Assembly: GCA_944389385.1 (NCBI GenBank)
Contig: CALXMC010000003.1
Span: forward strand, 10,356-74,355
DNA length: 64,000 nt
Reading direction: 5' to 3'
Source of the DNA: an uncultured Alphaproteobacteria bacterium
Lineage (GTDB): Bacteria > Pseudomonadota > Alphaproteobacteria > Rs-D84
Under the pieces are notes generated by a model. That model made no database searches. It was given only the letters and a program-made list of their open reading frames with translations, and was not told the origin of the DNA. Shown here in pieces: positions 59,862-60,850 of this stretch (position 1 is its first letter; the number at the start of each line of letters is the position of its first letter). Position numbers and translations under genes: made by a program.

Positions 59862-60070
59862 TTTCACCCTTCGCCAAGGATTCGGGTGATAAACCACCCC
59901 GGCACTTCGTGCCACCCCTCCGCAGAGGGGAACTTTGTTCCGCGACGTGACGAGAGATAGCAGCCATATTCTGCCGCTAGATGGGGAACTTTGTTCCGCG
60001 ACGGGACGAGCCAAGTTCCCCTCCATTGGAGGGGTGGTGGCTTGCCGCCGGGGTGGTTAGAGAGTGCAGG
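59862..60070 (+). repeat. Copy A of a roughly 165-200-bp structured non-coding repeat
   Basis: Shares about 85% identity over about 165 bp with 60531-60720. Contains internal 24-bp direct repeats AACTTTGTTCCGCGACG(T/G)GACGAG flanking AGATAGCAGCCATATTCTGCCGCTAGATGG. Has several short hairpins (GGCACTTCGTGCC; CCCCTCCGCAGAGGGG) and imperfect terminal inverted repeats TAAACCACCCC..GGGGTGGTTAG. Confidence 0.7.
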
Positions 60071-60089
60071 ATTAGGTACTTAATCCCTT

Positions 60090-60154
60090 GTCATTCCCGC
60101 GCCCAGGGTCCCCGCAAATACGAATGTATTTGTGGGGTGGTTAAGGCGGGAATT
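60090..60154. repeat. Nested hairpin element bounded by ATTCCCGC..GCGGGAAT
   Basis: GTCATTCCCGCG..CCCCGCAAATACGAATGTATTTGTGGGG..GGCGGGAATTC: an outer 8-bp inverted repeat enclosing an inner 12-bp near-perfect palindrome. Confidence 0.6.
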
Positions 60155-60179
60155 CTATAACTTTTTAGCAATAATTTTT

Positions 60180-60321
60180 GTCATTCCCGCGAAGGCGGGA
60201 ATAGGGCTTGGGTTGTTAATAATTATTTAATTTTGGGAATAATTCAGCGTTATATTTTTTATTCACCCGCAATCCGCGATATGAATTTAATAGACCCTAT
60301 TCCCGCCTGCGCGGGAATGAC
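60180..60321. mobile_element. MITE/NIME-like element: two 27-bp inverted copies of an ATTCCC-N8-GGGAAT hairpin flanking a 90-bp AT-rich core
   Basis: Left end GTCATTCCCGCGAAGGCGGGAATAGGG at 60180-60206. Right end CCCTATTCCCGCCTGCGCGGGAATGAC at 60295-60321, the reverse complement with 1 mismatch. The core is about 75% AT. No ORF. Confidence 0.5.
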
Positions 60322-60513
60322 AAGAGTGGTGCGGGCTTGAGCACTTAGTCCCCTTTGTCATCGCGAGGGAGTGAAACGATCGTGGCGATCCAGTGAATAA
60401 AAAAGCACTGCGGGCATTCGCCCGCAGACATATTGCACTGGATTGCCACAGTCGTACGACAACGTTTTCAACGTTGATCGTACTCCTTCGCAATGACAGC
60501 GGTGGGGGTACTT

Positions 60514-60527
60514 GTTACTCGTAACTC
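60514..60527 (+). repeat. GTTACTC heptad repeat motif (2 units) with no adjacent gene
   Basis: GTGGGGGTACTTG TTACTCG TAACTCT TG, directly preceding copy B of the structured repeat. Confidence 0.65.
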
Positions 60528-60530
60528 TTG

Positions 60531-60850
60531 ATAAACCACCCTTCGCCAGGGCTTCGGGCGATAGACCACCCCGCCCCAACCACCCACGAAAATTGCATTT
60601 TCGTGGGGCCCGGTATCGCGGCACCCCTCCGCTAGATGAGGAACTTAGACCGCAACAAGACGAGAGATAGCAGCCATATTCTGCCGCTAGATGGAGAACT
60701 TTGTTCCGCGACGGTACGAGAGTCAGTACCACCATCCATCGTAAAGGGTAACTTACCCCGCCCAGGTTCCACCCACGTAAACTTTGTTTGCGCGGGGCTC
60801 GGTGTGGGTCGGTGGGCATTGGTGCGTTCCTGTCGTGGGGGATTGAAATA
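60531..60850 (+). repeat. Copy B of the structured non-coding repeat
   Basis: GATAAACCACCC TTCGCCAGGG CTTCGGGCGATAGACCACCCC, then a 50-bp insertion carrying the perfect hairpin CCACGAAAATTGCATTTTCGTGG, then the shared core ACCCCTCCGC..GAGAGATAGCAGCCATATTCTGCCGCTAGATGGAGAACTTTGTTCCGCGACGGTACGAG. The right arm diverges from copy A. Confidence 0.65.

What the first reader, a model, noticed from the sequence alone, without database searches (positions are those of the whole stretch)
59862..60850. Two copies of a roughly 165-bp highly structured non-coding element downstream of virB10
Copies at 59862-60070 and 60531-60720 share about 85% identity. The shared portion has the same internal organisation: a pair of 24-bp direct repeats (AACTTTGTTCCGCGACGnGACGAG) around a 30-bp centre, preceded by short GC hairpins and ATAAACCACCCC boxes. 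The differences are compensatory in places (GGCACTTCGTGCC in A against the longer CCACGAAAATTGCATTTTCGTGG hairpin in B). That pattern is what is expected for a structured RNA or a selfish palindromic element rather than a decaying gene. No credible ORF spans them. A roughly 1.2-kb non-coding tract is anomalous in an otherwise tightly packed window.
Basis: seen in the sequence. Interest (0 to 1): 0.55.

Follow-up and report, generated by a model that had tools for sequence, protein, structure and literature searches.

The report
Mosaic array of palindromic intergenic repeats
The two "copies" are one full and one half copy of a roughly 106-base palindromic repeat, sitting in a 1-kb patchwork of at least six kinds of short selfish-type repeats that was inserted after virB10; the same pieces are scattered through many intergenic sites of a group of uncultured Alphaproteobacteria, so this is a new example of a known kind of genomic litter and not a gene.

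Summary
Window 59865-60010 and 60537-60720 share 88-89% identity, with the stated direct repeats and boxes, and chance expects none. But they are not a discrete two-copy RNA gene. The whole stretch 59824-60838 is built of repeat modules:
- heptad repeats
- a small hairpin
- palindromic element A
- three dRS3/CGTC-type REP hairpins (one a doublet, one with a nested palindrome)
- a 143-nt palindrome Q
- half-element B

The same modules recur, shuffled, at 8 or more unrelated intergenic sites in related metagenome-assembled genomes. They also underlie 77 spurious "protein" clusters in public databases. More distant relatives have only a 300-bp spacer with a plain terminator after virB10, so the array is an insertion. 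A closer relative has a rearranged array.

The canonical element is about 106 nt. It has invariant stems, two slots that hold about 20 different GC hairpins (with compensatory changes), and a central loop found in both orientations. There is no Rfam or Pfam match and no RNA-type strand asymmetry.

Best reading: a lineage-specific mosaic of REP/BIME/NIME type. It is a new member of a known kind and moderately interesting.

The parts
59824..59861 (+). Heptad/14-bp tandem repeat (GTTACTCGTGACTC x 2.7), the first module of the array, starting 7 nt after the virB10 stop codon
   Evidence: TRF gives period 14, 100% matches. The motif occurs 15 times in the window against 0.5 expected, mostly right after stop codons. 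It also opens arrays in L006, L008, L014, L019 and L022.
59864..59889 (+). Small hairpin module TCACCC-N14-GGGTGA; second copy at 60537-60561
   Evidence: Direct-repeat family D3, 89%. Further copies in L008 and L006.
59890..60060 (+). Element A: a full palindromic element. Outer arms are AACCACCCCGGC / GCCGGGGTGGTT. The variable hairpin slots are h1 (59901-59913) and h2 (60036-60049). The inner stems are CACCCCTCC...GGAGGGGTG and GGGGAACTT...AAGTTCCCC. It is enlarged here by a 56-nt internal tandem unit (direct repeats at 59929-59954 and 59985-60010).
   Evidence: Inverted repeats I6, I8 and I9. Folds with z = -4.0. Canonical 105-113-nt copies are in L006, L008, L016, L019 (x2) and L022, and a 165-nt copy that also carries the extra unit is in L013.
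60069..60086 (.). Linker hairpin GGATTA-GGTACT-TAATCC; a diverged second copy lies at 60331-60355, on the far side of the block that L008 lacks
   Evidence: Read from the sequence. L008 joins 60094 directly to 60331.
60089..60154 (+). dRS3/CGTC-type REP hairpin (TGTC-ATTCCCGC...GCGGGAAT) with a 42-nt palindrome (GGTCCCCGCAAATAC-GAAT-GTATTTGTGGGGTGG) nested in its loop
   Evidence: Read from the sequence and the fold. The same nested insert sits in the right-hand REP unit of L022, twice.
60179..60322 (.). Doublet of TGTC-tagged REP hairpins with tags outward. Each unit is an 8-bp stem ATTCCCGC, a 4-nt loop and a tail AGG. They are separated by an 88-bp AT-rich spacer, which is the shape of a NIME unit (dRS3-RS-dRS3).
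   Evidence: Inverted repeat I1: 29-nt arms, 97% complementary. 96% identical in L022, 86% in L006. Family definitions are from PMC3733652 and PMC1797815. A weak sub-threshold Rfam hit to Wolbachia WsnRNA46 covers this unit only.
60356..60498 (+). Element Q: a 143-nt long palindrome with TGTCAT...ATGACA ends. It is the most conserved and most widespread module. On the minus strand it carries an intrinsic-terminator-like hairpin plus T-run (60427-60408).
   Evidence: Fold of 60076-60500 gives z = -12.4. Eleven copies at 87-99% identity across 9 loci. Most of the spurious protein hits map here. Terminator scan.
60507..60527 (+). Second short run of the heptad motif
60529..60720 (+). Element B: a half element. 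It holds the box and small hairpin, a long slot hairpin CCCACGAAAATTGCATTTTCGTGGG (60583-60607), a left arm CACCCCTCCGCTAGATGAGGAAC, then one degenerate and one good copy of the direct repeat around the same 30-nt centre. There is no right arm.
   Evidence: Alignment A1. Folds with z = 0.0. The same left half recurs in L008, L014, L019 and L022.
60721..60838 (+). Terminal modules of the array, including another slot-type hairpin (about 60772-60797)
   Evidence: Direct-repeat family D5. 60769-60834 is 92% identical to L006 2382-2317, and 60761-60808 is 92-95% identical to L008 and L013. Homology to the array-free orthologous spacers resumes at about 60840.

Best explanation
The region 59824-60838 is a lineage-specific intergenic mosaic of short palindromic DNA repeats. 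It is the same kind of thing as REP/BIME clusters, REPIN doublets and neisserial NIME arrays.

**What the two copies are**
- Copy A is a complete palindromic element of a previously undescribed family, canonical length about 106 nt.
- The element consists of two inverted arms of about 40 nt around a loop of about 22 nt. Each arm is ACCACCCCG, a variable GC hairpin, then CACCCCTCC...GGGGAAC.
- In the window, copy A is enlarged by a 56-nt tandem duplication of the loop region.
- Copy B is a half element that shares the left arm and the duplicated loop units.
- Between them lie three dRS3/CGTC-type REP hairpins and a 143-nt palindrome.

**What is shown**
- The array was inserted at the 3' end of virB10, where array-free relatives have a plain terminator hairpin.
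- The array changes by gain, loss, nesting and duplication of whole modules, while the module sequences stay almost constant.

**What is inferred**
- The modules spread and rearrange as DNA. The likely routes are hairpin or cruciform intermediates acted on by a trans-acting transposase or recombinase, or template switching and recombination between the many inverted and direct copies.
- They encode nothing.
- They are transcribed, if at all, passively as the 3' untranslated tail of the upstream gene.
- Any effect on mRNA stability or termination would be a by-product.
For: **Dispersal**
- The 19-mer core finds two 'uncultured Alphaproteobacteria' MAGs in the genome collection.
- blastn shows nearly every part of 59818-60900 recurring there in other contexts: next to the RNase P RNA gene, upstream of secA, and between pfk and secA.
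- Translating the spurious ORF over copy B retrieved 77 protein clusters. Each is a different patchwork of the same modules, in several frames and on both strands.
- Fetched contigs show arrays of 30-1,575 bp at 8 or more independent intergenic sites.

**Insertion and turnover**
- Orthologous virB10-to-ORF spacers are 296 and 303 bp in L023 and L024, with a terminator hairpin and no modules.
- L022 has a 960-bp array with different module content.
- L008 lacks 60094-60331 exactly.
- The REP loop carries a nested palindrome in the window and in L022.

**Structure**
- 97.5% of cells pair in 7 copies.
- 25 of the 28 pairs in the three main stems never vary.
- The two hairpin slots show 4 pairs and 8 cells with changes on both sides; 0 of 500 shuffles reach the observed covariation score.
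- About 20 distinct hairpins were found in 42 slot instances.
- The loop occurs in both orientations relative to the asymmetric arms.

**Not a gene**
- No Rfam family reaches threshold.
- No Pfam hit on any ORF of the tract.

**Multi-copy behaviour**
- Five independent assemblies of this locus stop inside the array, as expected for multi-copy sequence.

**Family definitions**
- The REP units meet the published description of CGTC-tagged REPs/dRS3.
Against: - No transposase (RAYT/IS200-605, IS110 or DDE) was seen in about 250 kb of sampled sequence from these genomes. Mobility is inferred from presence/absence and rearrangement, not demonstrated.
- Copy number within the window's own genome is unknown. 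The 64-kb window holds only this one array plus four small heptad sites.
- No target-site duplications could be defined, because the elements are always embedded in other modules.
- Seven of eight independent arrays point the same way as the gene whose stop codon they abut. The main stems are invariant across genomes that differ by 18-30% in VirB10. Both facts could reflect a selected function rather than pure selfishness.
- Hairpin-preserving changes could reflect selection on RNA.
Confidence: 0.75

Rival explanations
1. The arrays are functional recombination-promoting structures, as proposed for neisserial NIME arrays. Repeats next to genes for exposed or secreted proteins would act as landing pads for homologous or site-specific recombination and so speed allele exchange in the neighbouring gene, here virB10. 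This would add a function on top of the repeat-array reading, not replace it.
For: - The array contains dRS3-type units arranged as dRS3-spacer-dRS3.
- Arrays sit downstream of virB10 (with a Cys-rich C-terminal tail), of two Cys-rich proteins that look secreted, and of a 1,600-aa Flg_new protein.
- Window 58552-59551 is 95-100% identical to L022 (99-100% across 58752-59551), while the rest of virB8-virB10 is about 79% identical. This is a recombination-like tract ending next to the array.
- The arrays differ in module content between close relatives.
Against: - There is a single such tract, and L022 is an 8.5-kb metagenomic contig that could be a chimera.
- Other arrays abut housekeeping genes: rpsL, rpmG/gap, rpmH and RNase P RNA.
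- No recombinase was found.
Confidence: 0.12
2. Element A (and B) acts at the RNA level. It would be either a free-standing small RNA or a structured 3'-UTR element that stabilises or terminates the virB10 message or binds a protein through its C-rich tracts and hairpins.
For: - Strong predicted fold of A (z = -4.0).
- Hairpin slots keep pairing through changes on both sides.
- Arrays are co-directional with the abutting upstream gene in 7 of 8 loci.
- The ancestral virB10 terminator is missing in the window.
Against: - No Rfam match.
- No promoter-like site for A or B.
- B does not fold better than shuffles.
- The main stems are invariant, so they give no covariation evidence.
- Sense and antisense strands fold equally well for A. 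For Q the antisense strand is slightly better (mean 2.6 kcal/mol). So there is no sense-strand preference of the kind G-U wobble pairs would give.
- In L014 an array lies downstream of an intact terminator.
- Template-switch correction of quasi-palindromes can create 'compensatory' changes without selection (general knowledge).
Confidence: 0.08
3. The tract holds decayed remnants of a gene (for example virB11 or virD4, which follow virB10 in many type IV secretion operons), or is a degenerate CRISPR or integron attC array.
For: - Its position after virB10.
- A repeat-spacer-repeat look: 26-nt repeats 56 nt apart.
- The right end of A (GTTAGAG) resembles the attC core GTTRRRY at 6 of 7 positions (sequence).
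Against: - No Pfam hit at E <= 1 for eleven ORFs of the tract, apart from one trivial 13-bit match.
- Array-free relatives go straight from virB10 to the same downstream ORF, so no gene was lost.
- The 'spacer' is the same in both copies, and the repeats are the loop of a palindromic element.
- No cas or integrase genes and no cassettes lie nearby.
Confidence: 0.02
4. The duplication is an assembly artefact, with reads of related repeats collapsed or mis-joined.
For: - Assemblies of this locus often break inside the array.
Against: - 59818-60557 is 99.9% identical in an independent 70.9-kb contig, and shorter parts are 100% identical in four others.
- 60361-60819 is encoded identically on 10 contigs.
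- L022 shows the same order of modules.
Confidence: 0.03

Closest known systems
Neisserial intergenic mosaic elements (NIMEs: dRS3 inverted repeats ATTCCC-N8-GGGAAT flanking 50-150-bp RS elements; PMC1797815)
   Same: - Clustered mosaic arrays in intergenic DNA.
- The window has three units that fit ATTCCC-N8-GGGAAT exactly. Two of them flank an 88-bp AT-rich spacer.
- The arrays differ in unit number and length between close relatives.
- The array lies next to a gene for an envelope-spanning secretion protein, and a recombination-like tract ends at the array.
   Different: - The host is an alphaproteobacterium, not Neisseria.
- dRS3-type units are a minority of the array. Most of it is other palindromic modules (A/B, Q, heptads) with no neisserial counterpart known to me.
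- No dRS3-targeting phage or recombinase was seen.
- NIMEs were said in 2007 not to occur outside Neisseria.
CGTC-tagged REP superfamily (Di Nocera et al. 2013, PMC3733652; includes dRS3, Rickettsia conorii RPE-4/RPE-6 and Wolbachia clusters)
   Same: - The units at 60179-60205, 60296-60322 and 60089-60154 have a TGTC tag, an 8-bp stem starting with AT, a 4-nt loop and a 3-nt tail.
- They form a tags-outward ('HH') dimer with a spacer within the 20-100 bp range.
- The superfamily predominates in Alphaproteobacteria and has no dedicated transposase.
   Different: - The tail is AGG, not the CCA consensus.
- The A/B element that the finding is about has no CGTC or GTAG tag and a different, much longer architecture.
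REP / BIME clusters and REPIN doublets mobilised by RAYT transposases (PMC3116915, PMC3337134)
   Same: - Two inverted hairpin-bearing units form one long hairpin.
- The elements cluster with other motifs downstream of genes.
- Sequence is highly conserved among dispersed copies.
- They are confined to a lineage.
   Different: - No GTAG tag.
- The units are about 40 nt with a nested variable hairpin, against 20-40 nt for REPs.
- No RAYT gene was found in the sampled DNA.
- Copy number per genome is not established.
Rickettsia palindromic elements (RPEs) and other MITE-like palindromes such as Correia elements
   Same: - Palindromic repeats of 100-150 bp in (probably host-associated) Proteobacteria, with terminal inverted repeats.
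   Different: - RPEs are typically inserted in frame inside genes, whereas these lie after stop codons.
- No target-site duplication or cognate transposase was identified.
- Sequence relationship to RPE families was not tested (no models at hand).

Membership tests
CGTC-tagged REP / dRS3 (applies to units 60089-60154, 60179-60205 and 60296-60322 only) | Unpaired terminal CGTC (or TGTC/CCTC) tag next to the stem | tested here: met
   TGTC at 60089-60092 and 60179-60182, and GACA at 60319-60322 on the other strand. Definition.
CGTC-tagged REP / dRS3 | Stem of 8-9 bp beginning with A-T pairs, loop of 4-5 nt; for dRS3, ATTCCC-N8-GGGAAT | tested here: met
   ATTCCCGC-GAAG-GCGGGAAT and ATTCCCGC-CTGC-GCGGGAAT. 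The unit at 60089-60154 has the stem, but its loop is expanded by a nested palindrome.
CGTC-tagged REP / dRS3 | 3-nt tail, consensus CCA | tested here: not met
   A 3-nt tail is present but reads AGG in both units of the doublet. The paper says 'most' tails fit CCA.
CGTC-tagged REP / dRS3 | Mostly tags-outward (HH) dimers with 20-100-bp spacers; many dispersed copies | tested here: met
   Tags are outward with an 88-bp spacer. Copies in L006, L013, L019 and L022. A 29-nt exact match in a Photobacterium replicon.
NIME array | Arrays of multiple dRS3 units separated by RS elements of many families | tested here: inconclusive
   There is one dRS3-spacer-dRS3 unit plus one further dRS3-type unit. 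The rest of the array is not delimited by dRS3 units.
NIME array | Occurrence in Neisseria, linked to a dRS3-specific phage recombinase | tested here: not met
   The record titles call the hosts Alphaproteobacteria. No such recombinase is among the called genes of the fetched loci.
REPIN / RAYT system (for element A) | Two REP hairpins in inverted orientation forming a longer hairpin | tested here: met
   Arms at 59892-59933 and 60013-60058; consensus fold of 7 copies.
REPIN / RAYT system | Conserved GTAG tetranucleotide at one end of each REP | tested here: not met
   No GTAG at the arm ends of A or B, nor in the other copies.
REPIN / RAYT system | A RAYT (IS200/IS605-type Y1 transposase) gene in the genome, flanked by the repeats | not testable with these tools
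   None appears among the Pfam labels of about 250 kb of fetched loci.
MITE | Terminal inverted repeats | tested here: met
   A has 12-nt perfect arms (I8). The doublet has 29-nt arms (I1).
MITE | Target-site duplication and a parent IS with the same ends | tested here: inconclusive
   The elements are always embedded in other modules, so empty sites and duplications cannot be read. The block 60094-60331 is flanked by about 28-nt diverged direct repeats, which is not a short duplication. No IS was seen.
Known structured RNA family (Rfam 15) | Match at or above a family's gathering score | tested here: not met
   Only three tRNAs in the window. The best hit in the tract is WsnRNA46 at 25.7 bits against a threshold of 65.3.
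CRISPR array | Repeats separated by unique spacers, usually with cas genes nearby | tested here: not met
   The 30-nt 'spacer' is identical in A and B. The repeats are the loop of a palindromic element. No cas domain in the seven flanking genes scanned; the rest of the window was not scanned against Pfam.
Pseudogene of virB11/virD4 or another gene | Residual protein similarity in some frame | tested here: not met
   No Pfam family at E <= 1 for 11 ORFs, except one 13-bit chance-level hit. The orthologous loci never hold a gene there.

The most novel reading that the evidence does not exclude
These arrays could be a NIME-like, recombination-promoting system outside Neisseria. It would be built from dRS3-type hairpins plus a new palindromic element with three unusual properties: invariant stems, hairpin slots that are swapped or rewritten, and a central loop that flips between two orientations. 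The flip might mean the element is a substrate of an unidentified hairpin-specific recombinase. The system would drive allele exchange in adjacent secretion or surface genes such as virB10.
Probability: 0.1. Interest if true: 0.6.

Novelty: new member of a known kind. Interest (0 to 1): 0.35.

Why it matters
**Practical**
- These repeats break metagenome assemblies. Five contigs of this locus end inside the array.
- They generate dozens of spurious 'hypothetical proteins' in public databases: 77 clusters from one query.
- Recognising them improves annotation and binning for this clade.

**Biological**
- Arrays of the dRS3/NIME type, once thought specific to Neisseria, occur together with a new palindromic family in uncultured Alphaproteobacteria.
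- They show clean cases of array insertion and of palindromes nested in hairpin loops, and a hairpin slot with many interchangeable occupants. This is useful material for working out how such elements move without a known transposase.
- The array removed the ancestral virB10 terminator, so it may alter expression of a type IV secretion gene.

Tried and rejected
**Searches that found nothing useful**
- Rfam at gathering and at permissive thresholds: nothing relevant.
- JGI metagenome scan with the 19-mer: four hits, all bare 19-21-nt chance matches in unrelated high-GC DNA.
- Viral contigs, phage records and plasmid records: nothing except a 29-nt REP match in Photobacterium.
- Cluster look-up to name the organism: no names or accessions returned.
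- Pfam on all ORFs of the tract: nothing.

**Tests that came out negative**
- Comparing sense and antisense folding energies, as a proxy for RNA-level G-U wobble: none for A, and slightly antisense for Q.
- Q as a dedicated terminator: its T-run faces away from any gene in about half of the loci, as inferred.

**Readings considered and dropped**
- Mini-CRISPR. The 'spacer' is identical in both copies and the repeats are the loop of a palindrome.
- Integron attC. The right end GTTAGAG matches the core at only 6 of 7 positions, and there are no cassettes or integrase.
- Pseudogene remnants. The array-free orthologous loci show that no gene was ever there.
- C-rich Rho-loading site. The array has no net C excess on the sense strand.
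Full report
**Context.** The window carries the rpoBC and ribosomal-protein cluster. After it come virB8 (54952-55704), virB9 (55729-57264) and an 833-aa virB10-like gene (57316-59817). Next is a 1,271-bp tract without a credible gene, up to a 117-aa ORF at 61089. yidC lies further on, on the other strand. An identical VirB10 occurs in 14 metagenomic contigs. Five of those were fetched, and all of them end 93-740 bp after the stop codon, inside the tract.

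**Checking the observation.** The described similarities are there.
- 59940-60010 matches 60650-60720 (71 nt, 93%).
- 59865-59901 matches 60537-60573 (37 nt, 89%).
- The 26-nt direct repeat occurs at 59929, 59985 and 60695, with 0 expected.
- The 30-nt centre is identical in both copies, with 0 expected.
- The ATAAACCACCCC-type boxes are at 59888, 60530 and 60560.

The alignment adds two points. Copy B carries an extra ~31-nt block that supplies most of the hairpin at 60583-60607. The right arm of A (60011-60060) has no partner in B. A folds into one long hairpin (z = -4.0), while B folds no better than shuffled sequence. The DNA between the copies, 60076-60500, is even more structured (z = -12.4). 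So the two copies are not islands in anonymous spacer.

**What the tract is made of.** Reading the sequence together with the repeat and fold results gives this order:

| Coordinates | Module |
|---|---|
| 59824-59861 | Heptad/14-bp tandem repeat |
| 59864-59889 | Small hairpin |
| 59890-60060 | Palindromic element A |
| 60069-60086 | Linker hairpin |
| 60089-60154 | TGTC-ATTCCCGC...GCGGGAAT hairpin with a 42-nt palindrome nested in its loop |
| 60179-60322 | Two such hairpins in inverted orientation around an 88-bp AT-rich spacer |
| 60356-60498 | 143-nt palindrome Q |
| 60507-60527 | Heptads again |
| 60529-60720 | Half-element B |
| 60721-60838 | Further slot-type hairpin modules |

From about 60840 the sequence is ancestral spacer (see the section on orthologous loci).

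**Dispersal.**
- A genome-collection scan with GGAACTTTGTTCCGCGACG found only two MAGs, both titled 'uncultured Alphaproteobacteria bacterium'.
- A JGI metagenome scan gave only chance 19-21-mers.
- In the two MAGs, nearly every part of 59818-60900 recurs at 75-100% identity in different orders and contexts. These include a site next to the RNase P RNA gene, downstream of a Cys-rich ORF (L006); a site upstream of secA (L008); and a site between pfk and secA.
- L006 3449-2674 is collinear with window 59824-60504. L008 is collinear too but lacks 60094-60331 exactly, which marks that block as an insertion.
- Using the spurious 168-aa minus-strand ORF over B as a protein query returned 77 clusters, none with Pfam domains. 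They match the array piecewise, in several frames and on both strands, so the similarity is at DNA level.
- Contigs fetched through these hits carry arrays of 30-1,575 bp at further unrelated sites: rpsL upstream, rpmG/gap, rpmH/acyl-ACP thioesterase and others.
- Outside the central, ascertained arrays, about 100 kb of flanks held four more arrays. This suggests roughly one per 25 kb in some genomes. That is an inference from a small sample.

**Orthologous loci.** VirB10 orthologues at 82%, 70% and 67% identity were located.
- In the two more distant genomes the virB10-to-ORF spacer is 296 and 303 bp. It consists of a plain terminator hairpin followed by sequence homologous to window 60840-61088, and it holds no repeat modules.
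- In the closer genome (L022) there is a 960-bp array with the same family of modules but different content. It has an extra B-type left half and another module before A. Its A lacks the 56-nt unit. The nested palindrome sits, twice, in the right-hand REP of the doublet rather than in a separate REP. Its B is about 180 bp shorter.
- So the array arose by insertion at the place of the ancestral virB10 terminator, and it evolves by module-level gain, loss, nesting and duplication.

**Anatomy of the element behind the finding.** Collecting copies from all loci gives a canonical element of 105-113 nt: ACCACCCCG-[h1]-CACCCCTCC-GCAGA-GGGGAACTT-[~22-nt loop]-AAGTTCCCC-TCCATTGGAGGGGTG-[h2]-CGGGGTGGT.
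- In seven copies, 97.5% of cells pair.
- The three main helices are essentially invariant: 25 of 28 pairs never vary. That says nothing for or against a selected structure, but it does show strong sequence conservation.
- The two small hairpins h1 and h2 show four pairs and eight cells with changes on both sides. None of 500 shuffles reaches the observed covariation score.
- Across all loci, the slot between the C-tracts holds about 20 different GC-rich hairpins in 42 instances. Some pairs differ by clean compensatory changes, for example GGCAC/GTGCC versus GACAC/GTGTC.
- The central loop occurs in both orientations relative to the asymmetric arms. The loop in the window, L006 and L022 is the reverse complement of the loop in L016, and roughly so of the loop in L008 and L019. 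This is expected if the arms recombine or if the hairpin is processed.
- The window's '24-bp direct repeats around a 30-bp centre' are a 56-nt tandem duplication of this loop region. Similar two- and three-unit versions exist in L013 and L006. B shares the left arm and these units but has no right arm.

**Comparison with known families.**
- The hairpins at 60179-60205, 60296-60322 and 60089-60154 fit the published description of CGTC-tagged REPs. They have a TGTC variant of the tag, an 8-bp stem starting with AT, a 4-nt loop and a 3-nt tail. They form a tags-outward dimer with a spacer in the 20-100 bp range.
- That family predominates in Alphaproteobacteria, has no dedicated transposase, and includes neisserial dRS3 and some Rickettsia RPEs (PMC3733652).
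- These hairpins also fit the dRS3 pattern ATTCCC-N8-GGGAAT, and the doublet has the form of a NIME unit (PMC1797815).
- Only the tail (AGG rather than CCA) departs from the description.
- The weak Rfam hit to Wolbachia WsnRNA46 covers this doublet only.
- The A/B element itself has neither a GTAG nor a CGTC tag. It matches nothing in Rfam, plasmid, phage or viral collections.
- I therefore file the array as a REP/BIME/NIME-type mosaic that contains known-type REPs plus undescribed module families.

**Function.**
- No promoter-like site precedes A or B. The only convincing plus-strand terminator is at 60890-60914, in the ancestral part.
- Q carries a terminator-like hairpin plus T-run on the minus strand. 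Across loci it faces a gene end in only about half of the cases.
- Sense and antisense strands of A fold equally well, and Q folds slightly better antisense. So nothing suggests G-U wobble pairs favouring the sense strand.
- Arrays are co-directional with the gene whose stop codon they abut in 7 of 8 independent loci (P about 0.035 under a coin-flip null; small ORF calls unverified). This hints at a transcript-level or replication-linked bias that I cannot resolve.
- In L014 an array follows an intact terminator, so co-transcription is not obligatory.
- I conclude, as inference, that the modules are DNA-level selfish or neutral repeats. Any effects on mRNA would be incidental.
- Quasi-palindrome correction by template switching is a non-selective route to the 'compensatory' hairpin changes (general knowledge).

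**A possible added role.** Window 58552-59551 is 95-100% identical to L022 (99-100% across 58752-59551). The remainder of virB8-virB10 is about 79% identical, and both are equally distant from L023. This is either a recent recombination tract ending beside the array, as proposed for NIME arrays, or a chimeric metagenomic contig. One case cannot decide.

**Verdict.** Interest is moderate to low.

Noticed in passing
window 60843-60914: A promoter-like pair (TTGAAA, 16 nt, TATAAG) is followed 20 nt later by a terminator hairpin GTGCGCGCATTGGCGCGC plus a T-run. Promoter, hairpin and T-run are conserved at the same place in L022, L023 and L024, although the sequence between them is not. It could be a tiny transcript, a leader/attenuator of the downstream 117-aa ORF, or a second virB10 terminator.
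   Followed up: partly
window 60935-61045: Conserved boxes lie upstream of the 117-aa ORF: CGATTCG...CGAATCGA...TTCGA, then TTCAACC-N5-GTTGTAATGTTTTACAG. They are shared with L022, L023 and L024 and look like an operator/promoter region. The 117-aa and 127-aa ORFs have no Pfam match.
   Followed up: no
window 58552-59551 (3' half of virB10): This 1-kb stretch is 95-100% identical to contig L022 (99-100% across 58752-59551), while the rest of virB8-virB10 is about 79% identical. It is either a recent recombination tract ending next to the repeat array or a chimeric metagenome contig.
   Followed up: partly
window 26138-26151, 54902-54955, 57265-57292, 61899-61912: The short palindromic motif AGTTAC-NN-GTAACT (the heptad motif GTTACTC/GTNACTC) sits right at gene ends: after ORF 24137-26134, after virB9, at the yidC/127-aa ORF junction, and inside a 54-nt palindrome upstream of virB8. 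There are 15 matches in the window against 0.5 expected.
   Followed up: partly
window 59686-59817: The VirB10-like protein is long (833 aa) and ends in a Cys-rich tail (CEGGALPDANGCCPGETYTDMGEQGFNCCPDGGGDCFPPIL). Genes abutting arrays in related genomes also encode Cys-rich proteins, one with an Ephrin_rec_like match.
   Followed up: no
window 9496-9545: A perfect 24-nt inverted repeat with a 2-nt gap (ATTCGGTGCTGACACTATTTTCAA / TTGAAAATAGTGTCAGCACCGAAT) lies inside the long minus-strand ORF 8539-10977, in a low-GC stretch.
   Followed up: no
L014 10386-10600: The called GAPDH gene (380 aa) departs from the usual C-terminus after WYDNEWGFS and reads on through a terminator hairpin into a repeat array before reaching a stop. 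This is a probable frameshift or truncated 3' end with a spurious extension.
   Followed up: partly
window 60299-60327: The REP unit ATTCCCGCCTGCGCGGGAATGACAAGAGT has an exact 29-nt match (two places) in a 1.69-Mb replicon of Photobacterium sp. GJ3. So this hairpin type is shared with distant bacteria.
   Followed up: no
window 60358-60864 minus strand: This spurious ORF (a 153-aa version is deposited in NCBI/ENA as a protein) and 76 related 'proteins' in public collections are translations of these repeats. They are database contamination by non-coding repeats.
   Followed up: yes
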